64,000 bases of DNA from an uncultured virus (IMG/VR IMGVR_UViG_3300034119_000891). Taxonomy: Duplodnaviria > Heunggongvirae > Uroviricota > Caudoviricetes. The position numbers and the translations under genes were made by a program. The stretch's first letter is position 1, and every line of letters begins with the position of its first letter. The stretch is from the IMG/VR virus record IMGVR_UViG_3300034119_000891. One strand, 5' to 3'. A model generated the notes under the pieces. It ran no database searches and was not told the DNA's origin. It worked only from the letters and a program-made list of their open reading frames with translations. Positions 11,231 to 57,200 of this stretch are shown piece by piece.

Positions 11231-11653
11231 TGGTGGAGGTGAGGGCATCGAAGCCCTGTCCTACATCTAATTAATAACCAACTACTTACATGCTTAGATA
11301 CGTTCGACATTTGATGCCTACAGGTTGTCATGGTGTATCACCTACTTTTTAAGGCTACCTGCTGGCGCGAAGTCTACCAGCTACTCTCGGCTTTTTTCTC
11401 AGGGCTTCACGATCTTACCCTACCCGTTGCGATTTACAGAAGTTTTAACGGAGTCCGCTTCTGTTTCTTAGGCAGCCATTGCATACTCATCTTCAGCGAG
11501 GAACTCGTCCACGTTGTTGATGATGTATGTTGCTTCTGCTAAGAGTGCGTCAGTATTATCTTCGGCGTTTTTGTTTTTGAATTGTTTTAATGGTCAATCC
11601 TACCCATTGCATGTTAGTTACAAACTTCGATACAGTCGAATCCTTGCACCCCC
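11231..11653 (-). ncRNA. ssrA: tmRNA
   Basis: 5' GGGGGUGCAAGGAUUCGAC; 3' CACCUCCACCA with a G3:U70 pair; tag ORF 11566-11468 AEDNTDALLAEATYIINNVDEFLAEDEYAMAA*. Confidence 0.95.
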
Positions 11654-13163: not shown

Positions 13164-14441
13164 TTAGCATAATAAATCCGTAACTACACGACCACCTTTT
13201 ACTATTGGTATAGGTCTTCCACCATCAGCCATCAAATTCTTATCGGGATCAACACCCATTTGATTGTATATTGTAGCTGCTAAATTTTCAACTGTCAATG
13301 GATTTTCTTCAACATCACTTCCTGTTGCATCAGAAGATCCATAAACATAACCTTTTTTAAATCCTCCTCCAGCAAATACAACAGAGAAAACTCTAGGCCA
13401 ATGATCCCGACCTGCATCTTTGTTAATCTTTGGAGTACGACCAAATTCAGAACTGATCATTACCAATGTAGAATCCAACATTCCACGTTGTTCTAGATCG
13501 TTAATCAACATAGCATATGCTTGATCAAATGGTGGTAATTGATTAGCTATACCTTTTCCTATACTGGTATGCATATCCCATCCTCCGTAAGTTACAGATA
13601 CATATCGCACACCAGATTCTACCAATCTACGTGCCATCAATAATCTTTGTCCTGCTTGGTTTAATCCGTATTGTTCACGAAGTTTAGTGGATTCTTTATC
13701 TAGATTAAAAGCTTCTCTTGCTTCGGGTGAAGCAATTAAATCATATGCCTTTTGATAAAAAGAATCCATAGCTGCCACTGCATCTGAATTATTTAAATAT
13801 TTAAAATGGCTATCTACAGTTTCTAATATGTTTCTACGTTTATTAAATCTATCTTGAGATACATTTTCGTGTAAATTCAAATCACGAACTTTAAACTTTT
13901 CGCTAGCAGGATCAGAACCTAATGAGAATGGTCCATATGCCTTAGATAAGAAACCAGAATCTGTTGGGTCATTACCGTTATTGGTTAGTTTCTGTGGTAC
14001 GAACACATAAGCGGGTAGATTCTTTCTATCACCTAATTCATGAGAAATAACAGAACCAAACGAAGGATACTCTAAAGCTGGTGAAGGACGGTAACCAGTA
14101 AACATACTAGTGGTACCTCTTTCGTGTGCGGCTTCACCGTGAGTCATAGATCGTACCACTGTGATTTTATCTGCTATTTTAGCAGTTTTAGTTAAGTATT
14201 CAGAAAAATGTACACCTTTTATAGAAGTAGGTATTGATTTTAGTGGTCCTCGATATTCAGAAGGTGCGTTTGGATGAGGATCGAAAGTTTCTTGTGCGGC
14301 AAAACCACCTGGAAGGTAGATGTGGATTATAGACTGTGCTTTTTGTTTAAGTGATGATTCAGCTTGTAATTTAAATATATCACCCATTGATAAACCTAAA
14401 CCACCTATAAGCCCAGTGTAAAGGAAATCTCTACGATTCAT
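13164..14441 (-). CDS. DUF1501-family protein with twin-arginine signal
   Basis: MNRRDFL; IHIYLPGG..QETFDP; ARRLVESGVRYV; GGWDMH; SEFGRTPKIN; GRDHWP. Confidence 0.92.
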   Translation of the reverse strand: MNRRDFLYTGLIGGLGLSMGDIFKLQAESSLKQKAQSIIHIYLPGGFAAQETFDPHPNAPSEYRGPLKSIPTSIKGVHFSEYLTKTAKIADKITVVRSMTHGEAAHERGTTSMFTGYRPSPALEYPSFGSVISHELGDRKNLPAYVFVPQKLTNNGNDPTDSGFLSKAYGPFSLGSDPASEKFKVRDLNLHENVSQDRFNKRRNILETVDSHFKYLNNSDAVAAMDSFYQKAYDLIASPEAREAFNLDKESTKLREQYGLNQAGQRLLMARRLVESGVRYVSVTYGGWDMHTSIGKGIANQLPPFDQAYAMLINDLEQRGMLDSTLVMISSEFGRTPKINKDAGRDHWPRVFSVVFAGGGFKKGYVYGSSDATGSDVEENPLTVENLAATIYNQMGVDPDKNLMADGGRPIPIVKGGRVVTDLLC

Positions 14442-19869: not shown

Positions 19870-20460
19870 ATGAAGAAGTTTTTATTCTTCGTATCAATAT
19901 TTTTGTTATCAAACCTTAATACGTTGGTAGCATCAAATGATACCTCGTTCTTTATAAAAAGAGCTTACTTAGATACTATAGGTATTATACCATCTACAGA
20001 AGAGATAGAATGGTATTGTGTATACAATAGTGGTGACAGTTATAAATTAGCTGTGGAGACTTTAGTTAAACATCCGAAATTCTCTTGGAATATGTCTATT
20101 GCACAAGCCAAAGAGATATTGCTGTCCGAACATTATAAACACTCAGCAAAACGAACATTAACAAAGGAACAAGTAACAAAAAATCTTTTTTATGTGGTTG
20201 GTATTTCATTAGACACAAAAATAAATAACGATTCAATACAATTATCTAAAAATAAATTAATACAAAATGCATTAAAATATGCTGACAGTGATATTCCAGA
20301 AGCCATAGATTACATGGCAAACTGTTTAATGTGTAGGAACACAAATGTAAAGGAAATAAATGAATTACTGAAGATATATAGAAGTATTAAAACTGAAAAA
20401 GAAGCATTGTTAACTGTTCTAGATGCTATATTAGAACTAGAAGATGTCAACACATATTAA
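19870..20460 (+). CDS. Secreted DUF1549-like protein
   Basis: Signal peptide; FIKRAYLDTIGIIPSTEEI resembles the DUF1549 'F.RR.YLD..G..P..EE' motif. Confidence 0.6.
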   Translation: MKKFLFFVSIFLLSNLNTLVASNDTSFFIKRAYLDTIGIIPSTEEIEWYCVYNSGDSYKLAVETLVKHPKFSWNMSIAQAKEILLSEHYKHSAKRTLTKEQVTKNLFYVVGISLDTKINNDSIQLSKNKLIQNALKYADSDIPEAIDYMANCLMCRNTNVKEINELLKIYRSIKTEKEALLTVLDAILELEDVNTY

Positions 20461-21278
20461 AAAACATGTTTGGTTTTCTTCAACAAAAAGCCAACTGGAT
20501 TAAGATCCAACAGATTATCATCACGTAAATGCATTTGAGATACTGATTGAGTTTGGAACCCTTGATCTTGAAACAATTGAACAATTTCTGTCAACGGTAA
20601 AATGTTACAAACTTGTCCATAATGATATGAGCTACCAATCTCATTATTTGAACAATTCATAAAACAATATGTTAAAACTACTTGACCATCAATTGGTAAT
20701 AGTTTGTTAAATTGTTTTAAATACTTTTTAATTTGTTTAGGACTTAGATGTTGAAACGTATTAGCTGAAAAGAAAATGTTAAATTTACCAATGTATTCTT
20801 CTAGTTGTGAATCCGAAAAGGTTCCATCTTCACCTAAAATTTCCACAGCATAATCCACACGCTTAATAACATCAAATCCAGTATAATTAAAAAAACTAGT
20901 AATTTTTGAGTTTTCGTAAAAAGATCCGTAACCGCATCCAATTTCAGCCAAATTAACTTCACCAAATCTATTTTCGGTTTCGTGGATAGCTCTATGCAAA
21001 TATCCAATTAAACCTAAATAAAGTATCAACGAAAAATTGATTTTATTCGATTCTTTAATGTTAGGATTTTTTCCCGATAAATGAGTTGTATTACAAACAG
21101 GATCAACAGAGAAATGTTCATCACATGCCATCCAAAATTCTTTAGGATTGATTTTATCTGGGTCGAGATATTCATTTAATTCGTAATTATGGTTACCAGT
21201 ATTTAGATGTTTTTGATAATCTTCTAGAGAATTCCAACCAACACTTTTCCATAATTCTATAATTTGATCTTTATTCAT
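20457..21278 (-). CDS. Class I SAM-dependent methyltransferase
   Basis: AEIGCGYG, YTGFD, FSANTFQHL, LLPIDG. Confidence 0.8.
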   Translation of the reverse strand: MNKDQIIELWKSVGWNSLEDYQKHLNTGNHNYELNEYLDPDKINPKEFWMACDEHFSVDPVCNTTHLSGKNPNIKESNKINFSLILYLGLIGYLHRAIHETENRFGEVNLAEIGCGYGSFYENSKITSFFNYTGFDVIKRVDYAVEILGEDGTFSDSQLEEYIGKFNIFFSANTFQHLSPKQIKKYLKQFNKLLPIDGQVVLTYCFMNCSNNEIGSSYHYGQVCNILPLTEIVQLFQDQGFQTQSVSQMHLRDDNLLDLNPVGFLLKKTKHVF

Positions 21279-21286
21279 AAAACTTT

Positions 21287-21347
21287 CTAGTCTCTCCCAG
21301 TGTCACACCACTTTCCTCGGCCTTACCCGTGAAGCAGCAGGTGTCGC
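21287..21347 (-). ncRNA. Unrecognised structured RNA motif, copy 1
   Basis: GCGACACCUGCU...AGUGGUGUGAC-A-CUGG-GAGAGA-CUAG. Confidence 0.7.
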
Positions 21348-21430
21348 TGTTTGTGTCCCAGATTCAAGATATCACAATTCTGTAATTCTTTACAAATTCT
21401 GCGCTCACACAAAAGTATTTATTAAACTAA

Positions 21431-22045
21431 CTATCGAATTTCTTCTAAAGAATTATTATCACGAATACACCAATCAACACCTTTACCAGTAGTACCCATT
21501 TCTCCCGTAGATTCTAAACGAACACCATCATATACAACACCAGTAATTAGTTCACTGGATTCGTCGTAATCTTTATATAATATTACAAGTTTACTAGCAT
21601 CAAAAACTTCAGAGTCTAAATCCAATTCGAATTCATCATGTAATCCTTTACTCCACTCTTTACCAATAACTACATAACGACTACCACAATTAACAATATC
21701 AATAAACCCATCAAATTCTGTTTCATGCATCGCATCATCAACAATTACAGAAGACTCGTATACAGTATTACCATGTTCATCTTTGACTTCAATAATAGTG
21801 GAAACATCATTATAAGCTCCATAAGCATGAACAATATCATCGTGCTCGTATCTATTACAAGCATCTAATTGATACATATTCTTAATGTTATCTGGGACTT
21901 TCTTCATTAAAATTTCATTCAAATTATCATCAATAAATTGACAAAATGAAATTGGATTATTTTTAAAGAATTTAAAAAAATCTTCTTTAATAGTCCCCAC
22001 AATAAATTCTTCGCCCAGACCTAATAAACTAATTTTATATTTCAT
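21431..22045 (-). CDS. Acidic hypothetical phage protein
   Basis: ORF track; lies between the RNA copies. Confidence 0.7.
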   Translation of the reverse strand: MKYKISLLGLGEEFIVGTIKEDFFKFFKNNPISFCQFIDDNLNEILMKKVPDNIKNMYQLDACNRYEHDDIVHAYGAYNDVSTIIEVKDEHGNTVYESSVIVDDAMHETEFDGFIDIVNCGSRYVVIGKEWSKGLHDEFELDLDSEVFDASKLVILYKDYDESSELITGVVYDGVRLESTGEMGTTGKGVDWCIRDNNSLEEIR

Positions 22046-22056
22046 ATTAAAAGATT

Positions 22057-22141
22057 CTAGTCTCTCCCAGTGTCACACCACTAATTCAACCAGCTTTCGC
22101 CAATCAAACCCTAGCGGCATGGAGCCACTAGCAGGTGTCGC
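22057..22141 (-). ncRNA. Structured RNA motif, copy 2
   Basis: Same ends as copy 1 (28 identical nt at the 3' end) with two inserted hairpins, one capped by GAAA. Confidence 0.7.
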
Positions 22142-22160
22142 TCTCCAATTGGAGGAATAT

Positions 22161-22253
22161 TAATCGTCTCTCCGATTAGTCACACAACTTGTATCGACCG
22201 AGAATTCCCAGTCCGTACTCCTCTAGGATAACCCCAGAAGAGGCATGTGTCGC
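22161..22253 (-). ncRNA. Structured RNA motif, copy 3
   Basis: GCGACACAUGC...AGUUGUGUGAC-UAAUCG-GAGAGA-CGAUUA; compensatory changes relative to copies 1 and 2. Confidence 0.7.
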
Positions 22254-22592
22254 AATTTTCGGCAGGATTTACGTTTTGCTACATTCCAATCACAAAACAA
22301 CCTACTACCAGTGGGGTTGTGGTTACCGAAATTTAAAAAAACAGGTATTTATCAGGTTTTTTGGTATATTCACTATTTTTCATAGAAAAGGTAAAAGCTT
22401 TATTAATGTTAATAACTTTAAAAGAATCGTATCCTCTCGGTATTTCAAACGGACAAAGTAAATTATATTCTAATCCATTATCTTCTTTCATCATATTTAA
22501 ATAATCATCTCTTTCCATATAGTCTGCTTGATTTGGATTATTTTTTCTGTAATTTTTATCTACAAAAATATAATCACCAGACATATTAATAT

Positions 22593-23102
22593 TTAGAGAA
22601 AATTATACTTTTTATTATTGTTTAAAAATTCTTTCTTAAGTTTTTTAAGAGCATAATTAATCATGAAACCTATATTACCTTTAGTAGTTTTCATCTTTTT
22701 AGCTATTGTTTCATACGGCAAATTTTTATAAAATCTATAGGTGATAACTTTTTGAAAACGTGTATCAATTTTTTTAAGAGATTTTAAAAGAAACATAATA
22801 ATTTCTTTATCTTGCATCTCTTCTACTACGGATTTATCTTCACAAATTTTTTCTTCAAGTTCTTCATTCTCAACATAAACAAAACGCTTACGTTTATTGT
22901 AAAATTTAATTGAATCATTCTTACAAACCAAAAATAACCATGCTTTTGGTACTGGAATTTTGTCTAAATCTTGTTTAGAAAATTTAAAATAAACATTCTG
23001 AATAATATCTTCAGCATCAGAAAGATTTTTTAGAATTCTAAAAGAATAATTTAACAAATCTTCTCTTAAATTTTGAAAGATCTCTAAGTGGTTTGTGTTC
23101 AT
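22593..23102 (-). CDS. ECF-type RNA polymerase sigma factor
   Basis: Region 2 (LLNYSFRILKNLSDAEDIIQNVY..KAWLF) and region 4 HTH (YRFYKNLPYETIAKKM); preceded by TTGACA-N17-TAATAT-N6-ATG (23109-23137). Confidence 0.88.
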   Translation of the reverse strand: MNTNHLEIFQNLREDLLNYSFRILKNLSDAEDIIQNVYFKFSKQDLDKIPVPKAWLFLVCKNDSIKFYNKRKRFVYVENEELEEKICEDKSVVEEMQDKEIIMFLLKSLKKIDTRFQKVITYRFYKNLPYETIAKKMKTTKGNIGFMINYALKKLKKEFLNNNKKYNFL

Positions 23103-23371
23103 GTGGGGATATTAGTATGGAGATTCAAGGTTGTCAACAAAGATATTGGGAATATTTCAGAATAAAAAGCGAAAGTTTCTTGGGATTATAAACTTGAAAG
23201 TAATACACACCCATACGTTTACTTGTCATTGCCATTTCATAATTTTCCAGCATGTAATATTTTAACTTAGTACGATCCCATGGAGAATAACCTAATCCTC
23301 TACATAAAGCAGATTTAACTTTAATTCGTGTTTTTGAAGTAATTTTTTTCATTTTCATGATAAATATGTTT

Positions 23372-46973: not shown

Positions 46974-49900
46974 ATGAATTTTGTTGCTGTAAATGACGGT
47001 ATTTTGGATAGTAATGGTGTATTTGTTGGTACTATACCTGATGCCGATTATTATATAGGTTCAACAGCTCATACATTAGGAACTGATAGTGGTGGTATAT
47101 TCACATGTTTTAGATCAAACGGTGAATATATCAAAGGTATGATGTTAGAGCATTATCCTGTTGTTCTATCAAATTTAACAGCTACAGATTACTTAAGTGT
47201 TACAATAGGTTATGCTGGTAATATCAATGCATACACAGAAAGTTATCCATTAACAGCATTTACTTCATCTAATGCTACTAATAGTTATATTCCAAATACA
47301 ACACATTGGCAGTACTTAAAATTTAATAAACAAAATTACGCTGATAATGGTTCTGGTGTTCCTACAGCTTCTGGTAATCAATTCACGTTCGTAACTTTAA
47401 AAACTACAAGAACTAATACATTAACTATAGTTAGAGGTGATGCAAGACCAAAACCTAAAGCTCTTAGAATTTCTACAAGTGTACCAGTAAACGATTATAA
47501 CGATTATTATTGTAATTTGATAAATGGTTCTAGATTATTAAATTATGATGGTTATTGGATGGATACCATTGGTACTAGTACTTGGGGTGCTTCTAGAGGA
47601 AGTTTTAATGGTGATTGTTTTTATAAAGATGGATCTACTATAGATGGTTTAAGATTTAATAATTTAACTCTTAATAATAATACTAATAATACTATAATTA
47701 GTGGTACGAATGATTATACTGTGGAGTTTTGGATATATCCACAAAATACAGATCCTTTTACTGGTGAAAATCCAGTATTCGTAGCTGGAAATTCAACTAG
47801 ATGGATATATATTTATTATAATTTGACTGATTGGATTGTTTCTATAAACGGTGCTTCATTTACAGTAACAACAATTGATTATGATCAATGGAGGCATATT
47901 AGTTTTTCAAGAAAAAATGGAATTTTTAGATTTTTTAAAAATGGTACTTGCGTATATACTAATTCCGCAAATTTTGGTTTTAGTATTGATTCAAATTCTG
48001 ATGCTAGAATTGGATACAATACTTATAGTAATGGGTTAATGGTTTCTTATTATGGAGGAATAAATCAAGACACTTATAGATCTAAGCAACTTATAACAAG
48101 TATTCAATATAGTCAAGCTGCATTAGATCCACTCGCACCAAAACCTGGAAGTTTATCAATACGAGGAACCATCATTCCTATTGCAATGGGAAAATATCGA
48201 TTCGTATCGGCGCATCATGATGGGATGAGAATGAATATAGATGGTACTAGTTTAATAGATAATTATAATACTAAAGGTGTTAATAGACAATATGCTTGGT
48301 TAGAGTATACAAATTCAAGTCTAGCTTTTTATGAAACTGGTTCCAAACATAGCATAACAATAACTTATTATAGATCTAGTAGTCAGACTACAAGTACTTT
48401 AACATTAGGAGTTAGCAATACTAAATCAGATACTGTTGCTTCTACTGGTGAATTAGGTAATACTCAGATTAATGCCTATAATGCTAATGATTTTAATTTT
48501 TTAAATACTAAATTCGTAGCACTCAATCCAGATTCTCAATTTTATTTAAATGGTTTTGCTATTTATAATCATGGTAAAACTGTATTTGATATAACAAAAC
48601 GTCTTTATGAAATTGCTCTTAATGATACTGGTTGTACTTTTTATTTAGATGTACCACAAAACTTTAATAAATCTATAATCAAATACGATTATAATACAAA
48701 TATAAAAAATTTATCAACTTTTAGTGAAATTACTTTAACTAAAAATTCTCCATTAGCTACACAAGATGCTGGTACTCCATATAACATTGTTACTACCTCA
48801 GTAGATGGTTCTTTACGTTTTACTGGTGGAAGCATTATTAATACAAATAATTCATTAGTTGGATTTGGATATGAAGATTTTACTATTGAATGTTGGGTAG
48901 CTGATTTTGGTTCTGTCGGAGATACTCTTATATTTGGTGATAACCCTGGTGTAAGTGCATATATTGTTGGTTCTAATAAAGCTATACATGTTTATTTAAA
49001 TAATACATTAGTTATAGATACGAACGAATTCGGAACTTATTATTTACCTACAAATGCGTGGACCCATGTATGTGTTGTAAGAAATAATTCTAATATATCT
49101 TTATATATAAACGGTATCATACAAAGAACTTATTGGGGTACAATAAATTCTTTTAATTTAAATACTTCAAATACTTTAAATATAGGTGGTAATATTAATG
49201 GACATATATCTAATTTTAAAATTTATAAATATGCTAAATATACTGCAAATTTTGGTGTTAGTCCAGTATATTTAAATACTAGAAATGAAGCTGTATTAAA
49301 TTATGAAAATAGTAATTATACTTTAAAATATCTATCAGCTTCTAATATAGAAAATACATATGTAACATATTCAATTTCTAATAATTCTAAAAATATAGTT
49401 AATTATTCTGGAACAATATCAGCTGTCAATTTTCATCCTTTTAATGGTCAAACCGAAAGTTCATTAATATTTCGTGGAGATATAAATGACTTTATTTATA
49501 TTGATAATGAAGATGCAAATTCTTGGTTATGGTTACCTAGAAATTCTGGAACAATAGAAGCATGGGTTTATTTAAATTCTTATGCAACATCAGATCCAGA
49601 GAATTATCAGCATAGATCTATATATAGTATAGGTGATAATCGTTTAAATTTTGGTGTAAATGCATCAGGTAATTTACAATTTTCATGGTTTAGAAATACT
49701 TATAATTCATTTAACGGATCAACCGTAATACCTTTATCTACTTGGACTCATGTGGCTTTTGTATTGAATAGTGATATTTCAAATAATGCACAGTTATATG
49801 TAAACGGAAATTTAGATGCTTCGACAAATTTTAATAATTTTACTTTTGCATCTGATAATGCTAAAAGTAGAACTTATATAGGAAAAGAATTAAGTGGTAT

Positions 49901-52900
49901 AGGAATTTTTAATGGTTATATTAGTAATATACGAGTAACAAAAAGTAATCCTGTATATACTTCAAATTTCACACCACTTACAACATCTTTAGCGATAGAT
50001 AATAAAACTGCAATTTTATATAAACATCCGCATTCAAATACATACATTAGTAATGTAATAGAATTAAGAAATTTAAAAGCAGCAAATGTTAATATAAACT
50101 CACTTTATTTAGGAGTAAGTTCAGGATTATATTTTGATCCTTTATCTAGCGCAACTATAACTATAAACAATGAAAATGGTATAAAAATATATCCATTTGC
50201 AACTTTATCAATAGGTTCTAGTTCAACACCAACAAACTATAATAATACAAACTCTATAATTTTACCAACATATAATACTAAAATAGATGTTTATGATTTT
50301 GGTAATTTTCTTTCATATGGTAGTACTAAAACTCCGTATACTTATTTAAATACAGATAGTCTATCTGGTAATTCAACTTTCACTGTAAAAGATTCTATAT
50401 ATAATATAAATAACAGTAATTGGAGAATTGGTGATACCTTAGCGTTAATACAAAATGTAACTTCTTTTTCAGAATTATTAAATATAAACTCTTTTACAGG
50501 ATCTAATGGATTTACTACGAATAGATCGATATTTGATCATCCTTCTATTAATAGTTTACCAGTTATACCTACAATAGCTAATTTAACTAGAAATAATAAA
50601 ATTATTAGTAAGAATACTAATAGCGTAGTTAGTAACAATAATAATTTTATTAGAGCTGATAGAAATTCTAATTTACAATTAAAAGATACACAGATTAGTA
50701 TTATTAATATATATACTGGAGCACAATCTAGAGGATTTAATATATTAAATAGTAATGCTATTTTATCTTCTTGTGTCGTAAACAAAAATTATGATACTGG
50801 TACTTATAGTATATTAAATAATATATGGTATGCACCAATTGCTAATTTTGCTGCATATTATTCTTCTTTAAATAATACTTCGATATCTTCTTACACTTTA
50901 TCAGGTAATTTTATTATTGATGGTAGATCTGCTGGTATAGAAATTACAAGTACTATTATACCAAATTTAAATTTTATTAGTAATTACGTTGTTGGTTGTG
51001 CTGGTAATGGTATTCGTTTAAATTATACTACTTTAAGTAGTTTTAATCTATATGATGTACATATTCATCGTTGTTCTAGTGGTATAATGACATCAGACGA
51101 TTCAATTAGAGCACAATCTTTGTTAACTGTTAGAAATTATATTAGTGCTGATTATTGTAGTGCTAACTATAGTTTTGGACAAAATAATAGAGTCTTTTCA
51201 AGAGGTATATCTATTGATTGTAGTTTCACTAATATAACAGCAAAAAATTTATCAGCAATATCAAATAATGGTGATTGGGGTTTAGTTGTATCTAATTTCC
51301 CTTCTTCGTTAACAGCTAATTCTTTTTATGTTGAAAATCTTTATGCTGCAAATAATGGTAATAGAAATATAGTTTTAGCTAGTAAATATATATCTACTGA
51401 ATTACAAGCACTTTCCGTAAAAAACATTAAATCAATAAATGCAAGAGGTGGTGATACTAATAATGGTTTATTATATATTGAGAGTACCAATTCTAATATA
51501 AATAATTTATATCTAGATAATATATTCGTAAATAAAGGTGTTTATCATGGTGTTATGGTAAATAAAGTTAATAATTTATTTATATCAAATTTAACAGCAG
51601 CTAATTGTTCCTCACGAGGAATTAATATAATAAATCCTATTAGTTCTTTATTTTGTAACACTTTATATATATCTAACAATGGAAATACATTTTATAATAT
51701 AGTAAACAATTCTGCAACATTAAACAATTTAAAAATTTTCAGAAACACTCAAGGTTTAGAATTATATGCTAATAATTTGTTTATTAATAATTGTTTATTA
51801 TCATCAAATCCTAACTATGCATTATATTGTATAGCAAATAATATAACAGCACAAAATCTTTCATCTATTGGTAATACATATGGCTTATACTTAAGTGGAA
51901 ATGGATCACATTATGTTAATAATCCTTATTTAGAAAGAAATACCTACTCATTTATTTTAAATAGAGCAAATAATATATATGTAAATAACCCATACGTATT
52001 AAATAGCTCTTATTCATTTAATTTAATTAATACAAATAATGCGTATCTAAATAATGTTTCCGCAATATCAAGTAATTATCTATACTATTTAAATAATACA
52101 AATAATACATATTTAAACAATTCTCTCATAAGTTCTGCTAAATATGGTTTATCAGCAGTTGAAACTAATATAACAACAATCAATAATGTTAATGTATTAA
52201 GTGGATCATCAGGAATTTATTCTTTAAATCATAAAAGTTTAAGTGTAGTTAATTTAAATACTGTTAGTAGTTTTAGTGGTATTTATATAAACACTAATAA
52301 ATCTAATAACGATTTTACTTTACAAAATAGTGTTGTTAGAAATAATAATACATATGGAATAATATTAACTGGTATTTCTACAACACCAATTAGTGCTAAT
52401 ATAGAAAATAGTATTTTCACTTATAACAACATAGGATTATTAGGATATTATTTTTATGGTAATTTAAAAAATACTAATTTAAGTTATAATAGATCTTATA
52501 ATATTGGCATGTTAGCTGCTAACAATCCAATACTTTGGGATTCTGTATCTGCTTTAAATCCTAATATTACTTTTAATACCTTAACAGCATATAATAATCC
52601 AACTTTATCTTCTGGATCACCATTTGGTGTTGGAACTGATGGTTCACTAAGATTTAATGGATCAAATCAATATTTAGCATTACCACAAAGTTCTGATTAT
52701 GTATTAAACGGTGATTTTACTATAGAATTCTTTATAAATTTAAGAACTTCTACAGGATCAGTTTATTTAGATCAATGGAATGGTATACAAGGTATAGGTA
52801 GTTGGCAGATAGGAAATAATTCTAGTAGAACACTACAATTATTTTATGATGGATCTAATTATATTAATGGTCCAGTTTTACCATTAAATACATGGAATCA

Positions 52901-53957
52901 TATAGCTGTATCAAGAAAAACTAATATATTGAGACTATATGTAAATGGTTTATCTACCAATAGCGTTTCTTATTCTGGTGTATTTGGTAAAAATGATTTT
53001 ATTTATGTAGGTGGTCAAAAATATTTAGGTAATCCTACGATATTTAATATGCCAGCAAGTTTATCAAATCTTCGTATGGTGAAAGATGTCGGTCTGTATT
53101 CTTTATCCACTTATACAGTACCTACTAATAGTCTAGGTCCAGTTAGCGGAACTATCACTGTTTTATATCAATATCCTTACAATAATAGATATATAAACAA
53201 ACTATTACCTACTTCAGTAAATTGTGTTTTTCTATCTGGTTATAATACACATGAATTTTATATAAAAGATTCAGCTATTAGCAATACACCATTTAGCTAC
53301 TATAACATACCAGGTATTACTTTTGATGGAATAAATTTCAAAAATTTCCATGTAGATAACACTGATGTGGGTAGTATAAATATGATTTCAGCAGTAAAAA
53401 TAAATGAAGGTTCTTACATATTTAATAACTGTTCATTTAATAATATACCAATATCAAAACCTTTAAATGGGTTTTATCAACCTTATAATATAAAATCTAC
53501 AGGATTTTCTTTTATGAGTTACAATAAATTAAGTGGTTATCATATAACTTATCTACCTGCTGGTACTAGATCTATAGATACAACAATTCATAAAGAAGCA
53601 TATGCGTCAGAAAGATTAACCCCATCAAGTAGTACAAAAAAATTAAGAAGTGGTAGTAAATTCGTAGCATTAAATGCTGGAGATTCTTCTTTTATAAATG
53701 TTTATGTGAGAAAATCTACTTTGTCTTCGAATGGTGTAGCTTATAATGGAAGTTCTCCACGTTTAATATTAAAACGAAATGGTGCAATGGGTGTAAATAA
53801 TGATATTATCTTAGGACAAGCAACTGGAACATCAGAAGATTTTGCTTTATTAGCTGGATTAACACCAACAGTTATAGATACTGGTGTATTAGAATTTTAC
53901 GTTGATTGTGATGGAACTCAAGGTTGGATAAATGTAGATTCATGGTCAGCAAATTAA
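46974..53957 (+). CDS. 2327-aa fibre-like protein with ~4 LamG-like domains, possible PA14 domain and beta-helix
   Basis: Repeated DFTIE..W..WTHV..LYVNG..ISN modules; HDGMRMNIDG; C-terminus homologous to the upstream gene. Confidence 0.75.
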   Translation: MNFVAVNDGILDSNGVFVGTIPDADYYIGSTAHTLGTDSGGIFTCFRSNGEYIKGMMLEHYPVVLSNLTATDYLSVTIGYAGNINAYTESYPLTAFTSSNATNSYIPNTTHWQYLKFNKQNYADNGSGVPTASGNQFTFVTLKTTRTNTLTIVRGDARPKPKALRISTSVPVNDYNDYYCNLINGSRLLNYDGYWMDTIGTSTWGASRGSFNGDCFYKDGSTIDGLRFNNLTLNNNTNNTIISGTNDYTVEFWIYPQNTDPFTGENPVFVAGNSTRWIYIYYNLTDWIVSINGASFTVTTIDYDQWRHISFSRKNGIFRFFKNGTCVYTNSANFGFSIDSNSDARIGYNTYSNGLMVSYYGGINQDTYRSKQLITSIQYSQAALDPLAPKPGSLSIRGTIIPIAMGKYRFVSAHHDGMRMNIDGTSLIDNYNTKGVNRQYAWLEYTNSSLAFYETGSKHSITITYYRSSSQTTSTLTLGVSNTKSDTVASTGELGNTQINAYNANDFNFLNTKFVALNPDSQFYLNGFAIYNHGKTVFDITKRLYEIALNDTGCTFYLDVPQNFNKSIIKYDYNTNIKNLSTFSEITLTKNSPLATQDAGTPYNIVTTSVDGSLRFTGGSIINTNNSLVGFGYEDFTIECWVADFGSVGDTLIFGDNPGVSAYIVGSNKAIHVYLNNTLVIDTNEFGTYYLPTNAWTHVCVVRNNSNISLYINGIIQRTYWGTINSFNLNTSNTLNIGGNINGHISNFKIYKYAKYTANFGVSPVYLNTRNEAVLNYENSNYTLKYLSASNIENTYVTYSISNNSKNIVNYSGTISAVNFHPFNGQTESSLIFRGDINDFIYIDNEDANSWLWLPRNSGTIEAWVYLNSYATSDPENYQHRSIYSIGDNRLNFGVNASGNLQFSWFRNTYNSFNGSTVIPLSTWTHVAFVLNSDISNNAQLYVNGNLDASTNFNNFTFASDNAKSRTYIGKELSGIGIFNGYISNIRVTKSNPVYTSNFTPLTTSLAIDNKTAILYKHPHSNTYISNVIELRNLKAANVNINSLYLGVSSGLYFDPLSSATITINNENGIKIYPFATLSIGSSSTPTNYNNTNSIILPTYNTKIDVYDFGNFLSYGSTKTPYTYLNTDSLSGNSTFTVKDSIYNINNSNWRIGDTLALIQNVTSFSELLNINSFTGSNGFTTNRSIFDHPSINSLPVIPTIANLTRNNKIISKNTNSVVSNNNNFIRADRNSNLQLKDTQISIINIYTGAQSRGFNILNSNAILSSCVVNKNYDTGTYSILNNIWYAPIANFAAYYSSLNNTSISSYTLSGNFIIDGRSAGIEITSTIIPNLNFISNYVVGCAGNGIRLNYTTLSSFNLYDVHIHRCSSGIMTSDDSIRAQSLLTVRNYISADYCSANYSFGQNNRVFSRGISIDCSFTNITAKNLSAISNNGDWGLVVSNFPSSLTANSFYVENLYAANNGNRNIVLASKYISTELQALSVKNIKSINARGGDTNNGLLYIESTNSNINNLYLDNIFVNKGVYHGVMVNKVNNLFISNLTAANCSSRGINIINPISSLFCNTLYISNNGNTFYNIVNNSATLNNLKIFRNTQGLELYANNLFINNCLLSSNPNYALYCIANNITAQNLSSIGNTYGLYLSGNGSHYVNNPYLERNTYSFILNRANNIYVNNPYVLNSSYSFNLINTNNAYLNNVSAISSNYLYYLNNTNNTYLNNSLISSAKYGLSAVETNITTINNVNVLSGSSGIYSLNHKSLSVVNLNTVSSFSGIYINTNKSNNDFTLQNSVVRNNNTYGIILTGISTTPISANIENSIFTYNNIGLLGYYFYGNLKNTNLSYNRSYNIGMLAANNPILWDSVSALNPNITFNTLTAYNNPTLSSGSPFGVGTDGSLRFNGSNQYLALPQSSDYVLNGDFTIEFFINLRTSTGSVYLDQWNGIQGIGSWQIGNNSSRTLQLFYDGSNYINGPVLPLNTWNHIAVSRKTNILRLYVNGLSTNSVSYSGVFGKNDFIYVGGQKYLGNPTIFNMPASLSNLRMVKDVGLYSLSTYTVPTNSLGPVSGTITVLYQYPYNNRYINKLLPTSVNCVFLSGYNTHEFYIKDSAISNTPFSYYNIPGITFDGINFKNFHVDNTDVGSINMISAVKINEGSYIFNNCSFNNIPISKPLNGFYQPYNIKSTGFSFMSYNKLSGYHITYLPAGTRSIDTTIHKEAYASERLTPSSSTKKLRSGSKFVALNAGDSSFINVYVRKSTLSSNGVAYNGSSPRLILKRNGAMGVNNDIILGQATGTSEDFALLAGLTPTVIDTGVLEFYVDCDGTQGWINVDSWSAN

Positions 53958-54217: not shown

Positions 54218-57200
54218 CTATGCTGTTTTAACACATTTGATACCAACTGTTACAGAACCTGCAACATCATTACCCATCAATGTGAATTTCAATAACGAAT
54301 CTTTATCAACTATAGTAGTCCAATTAGGTAATACATTACTACTATTTTTAAGATTTCCGACAGTTTTGATATAATCATCTTGTGTATTATCCCCACCAGA
54401 TATTCTATCGAATACTGGGAAATTATCGTATGATGATGATAAAACTTCAACATACACACTTGCAGCTTTATCAGTTAATACAACCCAATTTAATATTTGT
54501 ATTTTTGCTGGTATTTGTACTATACCACTCATACCATTTGCAATTATATCACCACCACCATCAAACACGAAATTTATTTGTGCTGCTCCACTTACACTAC
54601 TAGTAGAATTAACATAACTATATAACGAATCATATGAATCAGCTTTACTTCTGAATATTGGATCTACACCAATAATAGAAGAATTCGAACTTAAAAATGT
54701 ATATGAACTATAAATTAATCCTGATTGTCCTGTATATACATTGTAAGCATTATCATATAATGATTTGTTAGTTACTAAGAAATCACTCACTGCTGTGGAA
54801 ATACTGCGAGTATATGTATCTACTTGATCATATGAAGTTTTTGCAGTTAATATTGAATTAATATTAAAACCACTTAAGTTTATATAATCTACAGCAATTT
54901 GATATGTTGCTGAATTTTGTGCAAATGTTGTATATTGTGGAGGAACAGAACCATAAACCAATCCTGTTACTGAAACATTACCAACAATAGTCAAAGCTTC
55001 ATTTGGTGTAGCTGTATTAATACCAACTCGATAATTTGGATCTACATAAAGAACTGCTGAACCTTTATTTGTAAATGTTGCTATAGCACCAGTTAGAGTA
55101 GTTTTAGTTACTACCAATGCATCAAAATTACTATCATTTACTATTCTAATTACTGATGTTTGTATAACATTTGTTGTTGATAATGCAACTAAAGATCCTG
55201 TAGTTGATATTGTATTAAATAATGCATTACCAGAAACAGTTAAATTATTTACAGTAAAATCTTGTACTGATGATCCATTAATCCATAAAGCAGAACTCGT
55301 ATTAATAATATTATATGCATTATACCATGATGCTGAATTAGCTGTTATTATTGTTAATGATGTATTCCAATATGCTGAATTAGAAGTTAATGTAGCATAT
55401 AAATTATCGTATTTAGCATATCCAGATGATAAAGAATTCCAATATGCTGAATTAGAATTAACTACATTTGTAGCAGAAATCCAACTAGCTGAATAAGTAG
55501 ATAATATAGTTGTTGAACTAATATCACCCCAAAAAGCTGAGTTTGTGGACATTAATATATAAGTATTTTGCCAATTAGCAGAATAAGAAGTTAAAAACGA
55601 ACTTATATTATCAATAGCCGATAGTGTAGAATTCCATACAGCTGATGATGTTTGTAATCTAGTAACTGAATCATTCCAGTTTCCAGAATTAAATTGTAAA
55701 GTATTAGATATTAACGAATTATCCCATAATGCTGAATTGCTTTGTATATAAGTATATACAAAGTCCCAGTAAGCAGAATTAGTACTAAAAGTATTAGTTA
55801 AATTATTTACATTTATTACATTATCATTCCAGCTTGCAGAAGAAGCTGTTAATATACTGTAAGAATTCATCCATGCTGAAGAATTTGATATTACTAAATT
55901 AGTAATACTAACATTATCAACATCATACCATGCAGCAGAATAAGTTGTTAATATATTATGACCACTATCATATAATACTTTATTGTCATAAACACTATTC
56001 CAATTAGCTGAATTTGCATTTATAATTAAATATGCTACATTAGTATTATCCCAATATGCAGAATATGTACATACTGTGTTAAATGTGCTATCCCAATAGC
56101 CAGAAAATGTTCCGAAATTAGCACTTAATACACTTAATGAAACATTAGCAGCTTCCCAATCACCAGATTTTGATGTAATGGTTGTATATACAGATTCCCA
56201 GCTAGCAGAATTACTTGATAGTATATTAGCATAAACTGAACTATCCCAATTACTAGATGTACTTGATACTAATATATATAAATTTTCCCAATTACTAGAA
56301 TTTGTAAATACAGATGTATATGCATTATCATAATTAGTTTTTTGATCATATATTTCTATCCAATTAGCTGAATTAGAAGAAACTATATTTGTTAATGCTG
56401 ATACATCCCAATAAGAAGAATTTGATAATACTGTTGAATATACATCTTGCCAAGCAGCAGAATATGTACATATTACTGTATTTGCTGTATCATAAGCAGA
56501 TTTTTGATCGTATACACTAATCCAATTAGCTGAATTAGAAGATATTATACTATAATATGCTGTAGTGTCCCAGTTTGCTGAGTTTGCACAAACTACATTA
56601 TATATACTATCCCATATACTAGAATTACTACTTATTACTGTATATACACTATCATAATAAGGTTTTTGATCGTATACGCTAATCCAATTAGATGAATTTG
56701 TACTTAATATATTAGTTAGTTGTGTTATATCCCAATTAGCTGAATTATTTTGTACTGTTGTATATACAAAATTCCAATCAGCTGAATAAGAACAAACAAT
56801 TGAATTAGTGCTATCGTATGAATCTTTTTGATTATATACAGATTCCCAATTAGCTGAATTTGAACAAATTATATTATATAATGATGATACATCCCATGTA
56901 TTATAAGTAGAACTTATTATATCATATGCTGTGTTCCAAATTCCAGAATATCCACAAAGTAAAGTAACTGCACTATCATATGCAGATTTTTGTGCATATA
57001 CAGATTCCCAATTAGCTGAATTGGTATTTAGTAAATTTACTGTAGTTCTGTCATCCCAATAAGCTGAATTTGCACTTACTACATTATAAGTGTCATACCA
57101 AGTTCCTGAATATGTTGCAAAATCTGTGCTTATTGCGCTTATTGTAGTTATACCAAACTCCCAATTAGCTGAATTTGAATATACCAATAGATAAGAAGAA

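What the first reader, a model, noticed from the sequence alone, without database searches (positions are those of the whole stretch)
21287..22351. Three covarying copies of an unrecognised structured RNA, placed behind late-promoter boxes
Seen: the minus-strand scaffold GCGACAC[C/A]UGC-(variable)-AGU[G/U]GUGUGAC-stem-GAGAGA-stem occurs at 21287-21347, 22057-22141 and 22161-22253. Pairing is kept by compensatory change (ACACC/GGUGU vs ACACA/UGUGU; CUGG/CUAG vs UAAUCG/CGAUUA). The invariant parts are GCGAC, GUGAC and the GAGAGA loop. The interiors differ entirely in sequence but fold into hairpins (e.g. CUAGUGGC/GCCGCUAG and a GAAA-capped stem). Both loci start just downstream of a TAAATA box (21416-21421, 22346-22351) that, unlike the ~20 others, is not followed by a start codon. 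Each locus opens with an extra multi-stem domain (UUUGUGU/ACACAAA; UUUCGGUA/UGCCGAAA). Copies 1 and 2 end 8 and 11 nt before a start codon. Inference: a multi-copy late ncRNA with a conserved core and swappable inserts, such as a ribozyme/processing element, protein-binding decoy or cis-regulator. I cannot match it to a family I know.
Basis: partly seen in the sequence, partly recalled or inferred. Interest (0 to 1): 0.85.

Follow-up and report, generated by a model that had tools for sequence, protein, structure and literature searches.

The report
Widespread pseudoknot RNA of mobile elements
The three repeats are real copies of a small, tightly folded RNA that matches no catalogued RNA family yet recurs in hundreds of phages, plasmids and prophages from very different bacteria, so it probably does something basic to RNA that has not been described.

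Summary
The scaffold occurs three times on the minus strand (21287-21347, 22057-22141, 22161-22253), against 0.02 expected. A covariance model finds only these three in the window (E 1e-13 to 1e-16). Rfam 15 has no match.

The element is far from private. Two capped pattern scans each filled 120 IMG/VR loci, and 83 bacterial genome loci match. It also occurs in Marinobacter phage PS3 and in four plasmids.

I refined the fold:
- The 5-bp helix ACACC/GGUGU is stem 2 of an H-type pseudoknot. The two bases 5' of G-ACACC pair with the two bases after the U that follows it (94% paired, with compensatory changes).
- It is followed by GAC and a 4-6 bp hairpin with a GAGAG(A/U) loop, with strong covariation.
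- In about half of viral copies a U/C tract 4-5 nt downstream is complementary to that loop.
- Extra hairpins are inserted only in the first loop.

Copies sit at transcript-unit boundaries: before start codons, tRNAs and a tmRNA, in arrays of five or more before terminase genes, and sometimes at operon ends. No conserved partner gene was seen.

Function is untested. My leading model is a decay roadblock or boundary insulator RNA (0.3). Rivals are a new self-cleaving ribozyme, a host-factor decoy, and a sensor.

The parts
22346..22351 (-). TAAATA box (promoter -10-like) in front of RNA locus 2
   Evidence: The same box lies 11 nt before the ATG of 11 of 82 ORFs and 8 nt before the tmRNA 5' end. 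Here no ATG follows.
22257..22331 (-). Opening domain of locus 2. An outer 8-bp stem (UUUCGGUA/UGCCGAAA) encloses two hairpins.
   Evidence: Conserved in 4 related phage contigs; 6 of 20 predicted pairs show changes on both sides.
22161..22253 (-).
- PK1: 22253-22252 with 22244-22243
- P1: ACACA 22250-22246 with UGUGU 22186-22182
- Two inserted hairpins
- GAC: 22181-22179
- P2: 22178-22173 with 22166-22161
- GAGAGA loop: 22172-22167
   Evidence: model hit of 44.1 bits, E 1e-14.
22143..22154 (-). Palindromic spacer hairpin CUCCAAUUGGAG between copies A and B
   Evidence: Kept as CCCCAAUUGGGG in G002 and G004, and present in L040 and L147.
22046..22141 (-).
- PK1: 22141-22140 with 22132-22131
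- P1: 22138-22134 with 22079-22075
- Inserts: GGCUCCAUGCC hairpin and GAAA-capped hairpin
- GAC: 22074-22072
- P2: 22070-22067 with 22060-22057
- Loop: 22066-22061
- Tail AAUCUUUUAAU: 22056-22046, then ATG at 22045
   Evidence: model hit of 39.8 bits, E 4e-13.
21416..21421 (-). TAAATA box in front of RNA locus 1
21350..21413 (-). Opening hairpin domain of locus 1 (UUUGUGU/ACACAAA outer stem)
   Evidence: MFE prediction only. No homologues were examined.
21279..21347 (-).
- PK1: 21347-21346 with 21338-21337
- P1: 21344-21340 with GGUGU just 5' of GAC
- Insert of the UCACGGGUAA type
- P2: CUGG/CUAG, ending at 21287
- Tail AAAGUUUU: 21286-21279, then ATG at 21278
   Evidence: model hit of 47.2 bits, E 7e-16.
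21431..22045 (-). ORF of 204 aa directly behind copy B. No Pfam or PHROG family.
   Evidence: It is not related to the ORF that follows the same RNA in G004.
20457..21278 (-). ORF of 273 aa directly behind copy C, methyltransferase-like (PF13489, E 4e-9)

Best explanation
SHOWN. The three elements belong to a large, uncatalogued family of compact RNAs carried by phages, prophages, plasmids and other mobile elements.

The core reads 5'-N1N2-G-ACACC-U-N2'N1'-(2 nt or inserted hairpins)-AGU-GGUGU-GAC-N-[4-6 bp stem]-GAGAG(A/U)-[stem]-3'.
- N1N2:N2'N1' together with ACACC:GGUGU form an H-type pseudoknot.
- The second hairpin always carries the GAGAG loop.
- About half of viral copies add a 4-5 nt spacer and a U/C tract complementary to that loop. 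This would form a second pseudoknot.

INFERRED, the model I commit to. The module works as RNA, in cis, without a partner encoded by the element. It acts as a mechanically robust boundary element, a roadblock to RNA decay. It would stop 5'-end-dependent decay (RNase E scanning or RNase J) and 3' exonucleases from passing from one transcript unit into the next. The loop-tail pairing would hide the only single-stranded A/U-rich linker in front of the protected start codon or tRNA. Arrays would add successive barriers.
For: The family and its fold:
- No Rfam 15 match in the window, in 5 related phage loci, or in 20 bacterial loci.
The genome scan returned 83 loci.
- The model gave 110 hits in 100 viral loci and 104 hits in 80 bacterial plus 20 viral loci.
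- Pairing across 103 distinct rows: P1 97.1%, pseudoknot helix 94.4%, P2 83.6%, overall 91.0%. Shuffles gave 77.1 +/- 0.7 (0 of 500 reach it); slid registers gave at most 49.5%. The second set gave 93.2% against 78.8%.
- Pseudoknot pairs are formed in 158 and 159 of 168 copies. Variants GU/AC, CC/GG, AC/GU, AU/AU and CU/AG occur. 0 of 1000 shuffles reach this.
- The two modules are coupled. When only the pseudoknot half was required, 106 of 113 copies were followed by a GAGAG(A/U)(A)-loop hairpin, with 56 distinct stems.

The boundary role:
- In the loci whose flanks were annotated, the copy lies on the same strand as the neighbouring tRNA or the gene before or after it.
- In 94 viral copies the next feature is an ORF (46), another copy (26) or a tRNA (9). 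18 of 46 ORF starts lie 5-11 nt after the hairpin, three tRNAs lie at 3-12 nt, and six next copies lie at 8-11 nt.
- A stretch of 4 nt or more complementary to the loop is present in 43 of 94 viral tails. Control windows gave 7 and 8 of 94; shuffles gave a mean of 26 and a maximum of 35. The stretch starts 4-5 nt after the stem in 38 of 67.
- Contexts include the leader of packaging or lysis genes, between tRNAs and a tmRNA, and operon ends.
- The downstream genes are unrelated to one another.
- G001 and G003 share no protein with the window at BLASTP E<1e-4.
Against: - No experiment or end-mapping exists. The only RNA-library evidence is a 162-nt contig identical to 22152-22313 in one metatranscriptome, and that could be DNA carry-over.
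- A pure roadblock need not keep about 20 loop and junction bases, and helix P1 itself, nearly invariant from 30% to 70% G+C. That degree of constancy is more typical of catalysis or of a specific ligand or partner.
- The U/C tail is missing in roughly half of copies, and because the loop does not vary the tail pairing cannot be tested by covariation.
- Many hosts of the chromosomal copies (Gammaproteobacteria) are, from recall, not known to have a 5'-3' exoribonuclease.
- The counts come from pattern-ascertained sets. Some low-scoring model hits (15-22 bits, for example L014, L015, L093, L083) lie in coding DNA and are probably false.
Confidence: 0.3

Rival explanations
1. A new class of small self-cleaving ribozyme that cuts polycistronic phage or mobile-element RNA at unit boundaries. 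It would release tRNAs, the tmRNA and (near-)leaderless mRNAs.
For: - The core is about 45 nt and pseudoknotted, with many near-invariant bases in loops and junctions. Peripheral insertions are tolerated only in one loop.
- It occurs in tandem arrays, close to tRNAs and in mobile elements of many lineages. No partner gene was found between two small phages and the window.
- It meets the criteria that PMC5737381 (passages read) gives for 'sophisticated' RNAs: several phyla, a pseudoknot, and many highly conserved bases.
- HDV-like theta ribozymes lie within 5 nt of phage tRNAs (PMC10879173, passages).
- Ribozymes just upstream of ORFs can drive translation in RNA viruses (PMC13725137, abstract).
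- This phage appears to rely on leaderless starts, yet the two ORFs behind the motif have long leaders and no promoter box.
Against: - No known ribozyme model matches, even at E up to 10.
- No cleavage site can be named.
- Contigs from an RNA library run uninterrupted through a copy, and in a relative through P2 and 255 nt beyond. This is weak evidence, because it may be DNA.
- The constant spacer and U/C tail are not explained.
Confidence: 0.2
2. A trans-acting decoy or sponge RNA. The module would be processed out of tRNA-operon-like transcripts and bind a universally conserved host factor (RNA polymerase, 30S/S1, an RNase, CsrA-type proteins) or a defence protein.
For: - Arrays of units, embedding between tRNAs and a tmRNA, and 3'-terminal or stand-alone placements followed by terminators.
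- No cis gene class is shared.
- Conservation across hosts points to a conserved partner.
- In Marinobacter the motif is preceded by a hairpin with GGA in its loop. Its likeness to a CsrA site is recalled, not tested.
Against: - No partner has been identified.
- The spacing to start codons is tight in 18 of 46 cases.
- Most chromosomal loci carry a single copy, which is a weak design for a sponge.
Confidence: 0.15
3. A riboswitch-like sensor. The pseudoknot core would bind a small molecule or ion. The GAGAG loop to tail pairing, or an alternative pairing of GUG with a CAC tail followed by U's, would then open or close the start region or a terminator.
For: - A conserved pseudoknotted pocket.
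- The U/C tract directly abuts the ATG.
- In hosts that use Shine-Dalgarno sequences, the motif sits just upstream of SD plus ATG (L171, L193).
- A few copies are followed by terminator-like hairpins.
Against: - The downstream genes have nothing in common. Copies precede tRNAs, a tmRNA and other copies, and some end operons.
- Terminator-like sites follow only 10 of 92 viral and 7 of 72 bacterial copies, and several of those are the next copy's own hairpin.
- CAC directly precedes the U run in only 9 of 67 tails.
- Arrays of five are unlike known riboswitches.
Confidence: 0.1
4. A cis-acting transcription antitermination element (put-like RNA polymerase binder, or a nut-like site whose GAGAG hairpin is a boxB analogue) in leaders of late, packaging and tRNA operons.
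For: - It is placed at the head of packaging or lysis operons in three unrelated phage types.
- In Morganella phage IME1369_02 it lies between a promoter-like region and a terminator-like hairpin before the holin gene.
- The layout of two hairpins and a purine-rich loop resembles put and boxB. Both comparisons are recalled.
Against: - 3'-terminal copies exist.
- Downstream terminators are rare.
- The spacing to ATG is unexplained.
- BoxA was not looked for.
- The Morganella-type copies score only about 21 bits.
Confidence: 0.1
5. A ribosome-recruiting or translation-start element that presents GGAG on a hairpin loop.
For: - G-GAGAG contains GGAG.
- 18 of 46 ORF starts lie 5-11 nt behind the hairpin, with no SD in the spacer.
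Against: - This phage and G001 hardly use SD at all (6 of 82 and 12 of 53 ORFs).
- Copies precede tRNAs, a tmRNA and other copies, and some end operons.
Confidence: 0.05
6. A DNA-level signal (single-stranded hairpin site, pac site or promoter), or a chance repeat.
For: - It lies next to terminase genes in some phages.
- There is a superficial likeness to phage RNA-polymerase promoters (recalled).
Against: - Strand-specific G-U pairs, a pseudoknot with compensatory changes, and co-orientation with the neighbouring gene or tRNA in the annotated loci.
- It is found in phages with no phage RNA polymerase detected.
- Chance is excluded.
Confidence: 0.03

Closest known systems
Exoribonuclease-resistant RNAs (xrRNAs) of flaviviruses and some plant viruses (recalled, not tested)
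   Same: - Compact, sequence-conserved folds, often in tandem.
- A 2-3 bp pseudoknot made by the bases just 5' of the first helix.
- A second pseudoknot between a hairpin loop and the 3' tail.
- They act in cis and need no viral protein.
   Different: - Different topology. Here there are two consecutive H-type pseudoknots rather than a ring-closing three-way junction.
- DNA mobile elements of bacteria rather than RNA viruses of eukaryotes.
- No stalling has been shown, and there is no sequence likeness.
Small self-cleaving ribozymes of phages (hammerhead, twister, pistol, hatchet; HDV-like theta ribozymes, PMC10879173)
   Same: - Similar size, pseudoknots and invariant junction bases.
- Tandem occurrence, closeness to phage tRNAs, and enrichment in mobile elements.
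   Different: - No Rfam ribozyme model matches at E up to 10.
- The topology is not the nested double pseudoknot of HDV.
- No cleavage has been shown.
Small stable RNAs of phage tRNA clusters (T4 species 1 and 2, rnaC/rnaD; recalled, and named in earlier scan notes e1-4040530 and e1-5783110) and ROOL/GOLLD RNAs (PMC5737381)
   Same: Non-coding, structured, co-transcribed with phage tRNAs, function unknown.
   Different: - Those are single, larger RNAs confined to narrower phage groups.
- This is a roughly 45-nt module with a fixed core. It is reused in arrays and in plasmids and prophages of several phyla.
Lambda boxB / nut and HK022 put antitermination RNAs (recalled)
   Same: A short hairpin with a purine-rich loop, or two adjacent hairpins, in leaders of phage operons.
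   Different: - A pseudoknot takes the place of boxA.
- The loop is a 6-7 nt GAGAG(A/U).
- It is conserved far beyond lambdoid phages, and it also occurs at operon ends.
Start-associated sequences of cluster K mycobacteriophages (recalled)
   Same: A conserved GGAG-containing short hairpin a few bases upstream of many start codons.
   Different: That element is a 13-nt sequence within one phage cluster. It has no pseudoknot and does not precede tRNAs.

Membership tests
Any Rfam 15 family (4227 models) | Score at or near the family's gathering threshold | tested here: not met
   - Window at gathering threshold: only the tmRNA.
- 21200-22450 at E up to 10: one chance S15-leader hit of 15 bits (threshold 39.5), inside the ORF.
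- Five related phage loci and 20 bacterial loci: only tRNA, tmRNA and sub-threshold noise away from the motif.
HDV-like / theta ribozymes | Nested double pseudoknot (P1, P1.1, P2, P3) with the P3 hairpin between the two strands of P1 | tested here: not met
   In the minimal form only 8 nt (UGC-NN-AGU) lie between the strands of the 5-bp helix, in 48 of 168 copies. The two pseudoknots are consecutive, not nested. No HDV-family hit.
Type III toxin-antitoxin antitoxin arrays (ToxI-like) | Near-identical short direct repeats next to a ToxN/AbiQ-type toxin gene | tested here: not met
   Units differ in length (61, 85 and 93 nt), stems and inserts. The flanking ORFs are a methyltransferase-like protein and a protein with no Pfam family.
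Riboswitch (as a kind) | Association with one functional class of downstream genes | tested here: not met
   Downstream features include methyltransferase-like, unknown, TerL, primase, holin, helicase-module genes, tRNAs, a tmRNA, or nothing.
Riboswitch (as a kind) | Expression platform (terminator or start-site sequestration) overlapping the aptamer | tested here: inconclusive
   The loop-complementary tract abuts the ATG in a subset. Terminator-like sites follow only 10 of 92 viral and 7 of 72 bacterial copies.
xrRNA-like decay roadblock | Pseudoknot formed by the bases immediately 5' of the first helix | tested here: met
   158 and 159 of 168 copies are paired, with compensatory variants; 0 of 1000 shuffles reach this. 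94.4% paired on the model alignment.
xrRNA-like decay roadblock | Hairpin loop pairs with the 3' tail | tested here: inconclusive
   43 of 94 viral tails are complementary, against 7 and 8 of 94 controls. No covariation test is possible because the loop is invariant.
xrRNA-like decay roadblock | Stalls an exoribonuclease, leaving a protected downstream fragment | not testable with these tools
   Only contigs, not raw reads, were available for the RNA run.
Lambda-type nut site | BoxA sequence upstream of a boxB hairpin, with an N-type protein | not tested
   Only the hairpin likeness was noted. BoxA was not searched for.
'Biochemically sophisticated RNA' criteria of PMC5737381 (section 17) | [quoted passage not shown] | tested here: inconclusive
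   - A pseudoknot is shown.
- Records are labelled as Pseudomonadota, Chloroflexota (an isolate), Cyanobacteria, Acidobacteriota, Planctomycetota and others, but most are metagenome bins.
- Conservation was measured on pattern-ascertained sets.

The most novel reading that the evidence does not exclude
The module is a new class of self-cleaving ribozyme, the first found for some years. Phages, plasmids and prophages of many phyla would use it to cut their transcripts at unit boundaries. In phages like this one, that would create leaderless mRNAs and free tRNA and tmRNA precursors.
Probability: 0.2. Interest if true: 0.92.

Novelty: categorically new. Interest (0 to 1): 0.82.

Why it matters
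A roughly 45-nt RNA core is held almost letter for letter in mobile elements whose genomes range from about 30% to 70% G+C, and it is reused in arrays. An element like that is likely to touch something universal: RNA decay, RNA cleavage chemistry, or a conserved host machine.

- If it is a decay roadblock, it would be the first xrRNA-like device of bacterial viruses, and a portable stabiliser for synthetic biology.
- If it is a ribozyme or a sensor, it would be a new class.

It can be tested directly, because cultured carriers exist. These include Marinobacter phage PS3, several Marinobacter and Microbulbifer isolates, and plasmids.

Tried and rejected
- Whole-genome search: no genome is held for this window.
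- DNA similarity of 20400-23200 to GenBank phages: no match.
- Relatives of the 204-aa ORF in IMG/VR: none.
- The ORFs behind the same RNA in the window and in G004 are unrelated.
- Earlier scan notes by sequence, place and words: nothing on this motif.
- Literature:
  - Three keyword searches and a fourth gave no description of the motif.
  - A search for four core strings found 61 papers. In the 10 listed, only the DNA 10-mer occurred, in unrelated primer or variant contexts.
  - PMC5737381 mentions no terminase-linked or comparable motif in the passages found. Its supplements were not read.
- E. coli genomes: no match to the Morganella-type copy.
- RNA evidence: the metatranscriptome run covers only 22152-22313, plus 45 nt of a relative's contig. 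The contig ends coincide with DNA-contig ends at the palindrome, so they say nothing about RNA ends. Parts without cover are not evidence.
- Alternative terminator idea (GUG pairing with a CAC tail before the U run): CAC precedes the U run in only 9 of 67 tails, so I dropped it as a general feature.
- Protein-coding reading of 22150-22350 (antisense ORF 22189-22461): rejected, because relatives differ by 1-, 2- and 5-nt indels there.
- Shared partner protein: none found between the window and G001 or G003. The window is only part of its genome.
Full report
**1. The observation**

The pattern GTGTGAC-N(4-12)-GAGAGA occurs 3 times in the window against 0.02 expected, and 0 of 100 shuffles reach 3. 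The quoted compensatory pairs, the inserted hairpins, the 8- and 11-nt distances to ATG 21278 and ATG 22045, and the two TAAATA boxes are all present.

Rfam 15 finds only the phage tmRNA in the window at gathering thresholds. At E up to 10 it finds nothing at the loci; the one hit is a 15-bit S15-leader match inside the ORF.

The window is a roughly 30% G+C phage-like genome. It carries a tmRNA, two tRNAs, a sigma factor, an RNA ligase and UvdE. No whole genome is held for it.

**2. The element is not private to this phage**

- A scan of IMG/VR for GTGTGAC-N(3-13)-GGAGAGAC filled its 120-locus limit. 106 of 138 matches had a 4- or 5-nt gap, which chance would not give. Most carried GCGACACCUGC...AGUG upstream, and several were in arrays.
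- Of 126 matches with a 3-8 nt gap, 83 had the 5' half within 170 nt, giving 81 unique copies.
- I built a covariance model (R1) from 18 short copies from other phages. It gave the following:
  - exactly the three window copies, at 47.2, 44.1 and 39.8 bits, with the next hit at 5.2 bits;
  - 110 hits in the first 100 viral loci;
  - 104 hits in 80 bacterial plus 20 viral loci.
  - Hits of 15-22 bits inside coding DNA (for example L014, L015, L093, L083) are probably false.
- A strict three-part pattern found 83 loci in the species-representative genome collection. They were mostly Marinobacter, Microbulbifer and other Gammaproteobacteria. Records labelled Cyanobacteria, Acidobacteriota, Chloroflexota (the isolate Bellilinea), Planctomycetota and others also matched. 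Many are metagenome bins that could hold phage contigs.
- Marinobacter phage PS3 carries a clear copy at 42.3 bits. Morganella, Providencia and Pseudomonas phages and two cyanophages carry weaker or variant copies.
- Four plasmids carry it.
- None of these loci matches an Rfam family at the motif.

**3. The fold**

I parsed 168 unique copies out of 217 model hits. Thirty failed my parser and the rest were duplicates.

The consensus is G-C-G (91%, 84%, 91%), then ACACC, then UGC (135 of 168), then at least 2 nt or inserts, then AGU (145 of 168), then GGUGU, then GAC, then usually one unpaired base, then a 4-6 bp stem, then GAGAGA, then the returning stem.

- *Helix P1.* It is ACACC/GGUGU in 140 of 168 copies. 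Compensatory variants ACACA/UGUGU and ACGCC/GGCGU occur in 7 copies each.
- *New pseudoknot (PK1).* The two bases 5' of the linker G pair with the two bases after the U that follows ACACC.
  - They are paired in 158 and 159 of 168 copies.
  - Variants GU/AC, CC/GG, AC/GU, AU/AU and CU/AG occur.
  - 0 of 1000 shuffles reach the observed count.
  - P1 is therefore stem 2 of an H-type pseudoknot with one-base loops G and U. All inserted hairpins sit in its third loop.
- *Pairing on the model alignment (103 distinct rows).*

| Helix | Paired |
|---|---|
| PK1 | 94.4% |
| P1 | 97.1% |
| P2 | 83.6% |
| Overall | 91.0% |

  Shuffles gave 77.1 +/- 0.7 (0 of 500 reach the observed value), and slid registers gave at most 49.5%. 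The second alignment gave 93.2% against 78.8%. The second pair of P2 shows CG 36, UA 31, AU 12, GC 12 and GU 8.
- *Caveat.* These alignments are fitted to the model, and the sets were ascertained with patterns.
- *Less biased test of the second hairpin.* I required only the pseudoknot half plus GAC. Of 113 unique copies, 106 were followed within 3-10 nt by a GAGAG(A/U)(A) loop. Of those 106, 89 had a contiguous stem of 4 bp or more, 92 had a G-C closing pair, and there were 56 distinct stems.
- *Recurring insert modules.* These are a GGCUCCAUGCC hairpin, a GGACYGGG...GGUCGA hairpin, a UCACGGGUAAUGCC type, and GNRA-capped stems. The window's copies use all four types between them.

**4. The tail**

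After the second hairpin, 43 of 94 viral copies have 4 nt or more complementary to the GAGAGA loop (G-U pairs allowed) within +3 to +14. Two control windows gave 7 and 8 of 94. Composition-matched shuffles gave a mean of 26 and a maximum of 35. A U run begins 4-5 nt after the stem in 38 of 67 tails that have one.

This geometry fits a second H-type pseudoknot. It cannot be tested by covariation because the loop does not vary.

**5. Context**

*Related large phages.* In four related contigs (G002, G004, G005, L147) the whole composite RNA of window 22046-22340 is conserved: opening domain, copy A, palindromic hairpin, copy B. Relatives differ by 1-, 2- and 5-nt indels, which excludes a coding reading. 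In these contigs the RNA lies behind tRNAs and in front of a tmRNA, an unrelated ORF, or further tRNAs.

*A complete small phage.* G001 is a complete 39-kb phage with terminal repeats. Five copies lie between a small ORF and TerL-portal, and a sixth lies elsewhere.

*Other carriers.*
- Pseudomonas phage Itty13 and Morganella phage IME1369_02 have weaker copies in the leaders of terS and holin.
- PS3 and a Sedimenticola plasmid have copies at the 3' end of a transcription unit.
- Some chromosomal copies lie 125-460 nt downstream of tRNA genes, or next to transposase, primase, tail or SSB genes.

*What follows the motif.* Across 94 viral copies the next feature is an ORF (46), another copy (26), a tRNA (9) or nothing called (13). 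18 of 46 ORF starts lie 5-11 nt after the hairpin. Terminator-like hairpins rarely follow: 10 of 92 viral and 7 of 72 bacterial copies.

*Partner genes.* The downstream genes share no family. G001 and G003 share no protein with the window's 168 ORFs at BLASTP E<1e-4.

*Start signals in this phage.* TAAATA lies exactly 11 nt before 11 of 82 start codons and 8 nt before the tmRNA. Only 6 of 82 ORFs have any SD-like tetramer. The box therefore behaves like a -10-type promoter element that gives leaderless mRNAs. The two RNA loci are the exceptions, because there the box is followed by structured RNA.

**6. Expression**

One metatranscriptome run holds a 162-nt contig identical to 22152-22313, and a deeper contig from a relative that runs through the second hairpin and 255 nt beyond. 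DNA runs of the same study break at the same places. This is at most a weak hint of transcription. It says nothing about RNA ends.

**7. How it may work**

A model has to explain these facts:
- near-invariant loop and junction bases from about 30% to 70% G+C;
- restriction to mobile elements;
- the same orientation as the neighbouring gene or tRNA in the loci I annotated;
- placement at unit boundaries, whatever follows;
- arrays whose units have different stems;
- a short, constant spacer with a loop-complementary tract;
- no partner gene.

I commit, at 0.3, to a cis-acting boundary or decay-roadblock RNA. Two stacked pseudoknots would resist unwinding from either side, and the loop-tail pairing would hide the A/U-rich linker before the protected unit.

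The weak point of this model is the sequence invariance of P1 and the loops. That pattern is more typical of catalysis or specific binding. The rivals are:
- a new self-cleaving ribozyme (0.2), which fits the criteria quoted from PMC5737381 and has precedents near phage tRNAs (PMC10879173) and upstream of ORFs (PMC13725137 abstract);
- a trans-acting decoy (0.15);
- a sensor (0.1);
- an antiterminator (0.1);
- a translation element (0.05);
- a DNA signal or chance (0.03).

**8. Novelty**

No Rfam 15 family matches. No earlier scan note covers it. None of the six literature searches that ran described it. The library lacks most subscription journals, and I read no supplements, so an earlier description cannot be excluded.

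At the family level it is new. Which kind of device it is remains to be shown.

Noticed in passing
window, e.g. 59763, 39485, 26728, 26483, 24798, 24445, 24116, 22595, 18692, 14452, 9311 (minus strand) and 11667: TAAATA sits exactly 11 nt (a 5-nt spacer) before the ATG of 11 of 82 ORFs and 8 nt before the mature 5' end of the tmRNA. Only 6 of 82 ORFs have an SD-like tetramer. This suggests a T4-late-like -10 box that produces leaderless mRNAs.
   Followed up: partly
window 11231-11653 (-): A phage-encoded tmRNA (79.6 bits) with tag peptide AEDNTDALLAEATYIINNVDEFLAEDEYAMAA. The relative G002 has a homologous tmRNA directly behind the same RNA motif pair.
   Followed up: partly
window 13164-14441 (-) and 19870-20460 (+): The phage carries a DUF1501 protein (E 1e-116) and a PSCyt2/DUF1549-like ORF. 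From recall these families are typical of Planctomycetes-type bacteria, which may hint at the host. The contig L147 (binned as Bacteriovoracaceae) has the same DUF1501 gene and the same RNA.
   Followed up: no
L121 3054-3580 (G001) and many podovirus-like loci (L009, L025, L033, L075, L081): The array region also holds other conserved structured modules. Examples are GCCCGCC-AAGGCUAGUGCGAAAGCAUCCUCAAACC-GGCGGGC and a UCGGGACGCCGAAUCGGGAACGCC element that is itself a divergent motif copy. The region follows a small ORF ending in GNPLGLGKFDY.
   Followed up: no
L132, L134, L137, L152, L153, L155, L173, L186 (bacterial loci): In Marinobacter-type chromosomal copies the motif is preceded by a hairpin GGCA-NGGAU-GCC. 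It resembles a CsrA/RsmA binding site (recalled consensus). In some loci an intrinsic terminator follows, so these copies may be stand-alone small RNA genes.
   Followed up: no
L215 3000-3052, L216 3000-3056 (Microcystis and Nostoc phages): A variant keeps the pseudoknot half (GGCG-GCACC-UGC-CC-AGU-GGUGC-GAU) but is followed by a plain GC hairpin without the GAGAG loop.
   Followed up: no
window 46974-53957 (+), 54218-59752 (-), 59761-63999 (-): Three very large ORFs (2327, 1844 and more than 1400 aa) in very A+T-rich DNA. They were not examined.
   Followed up: no
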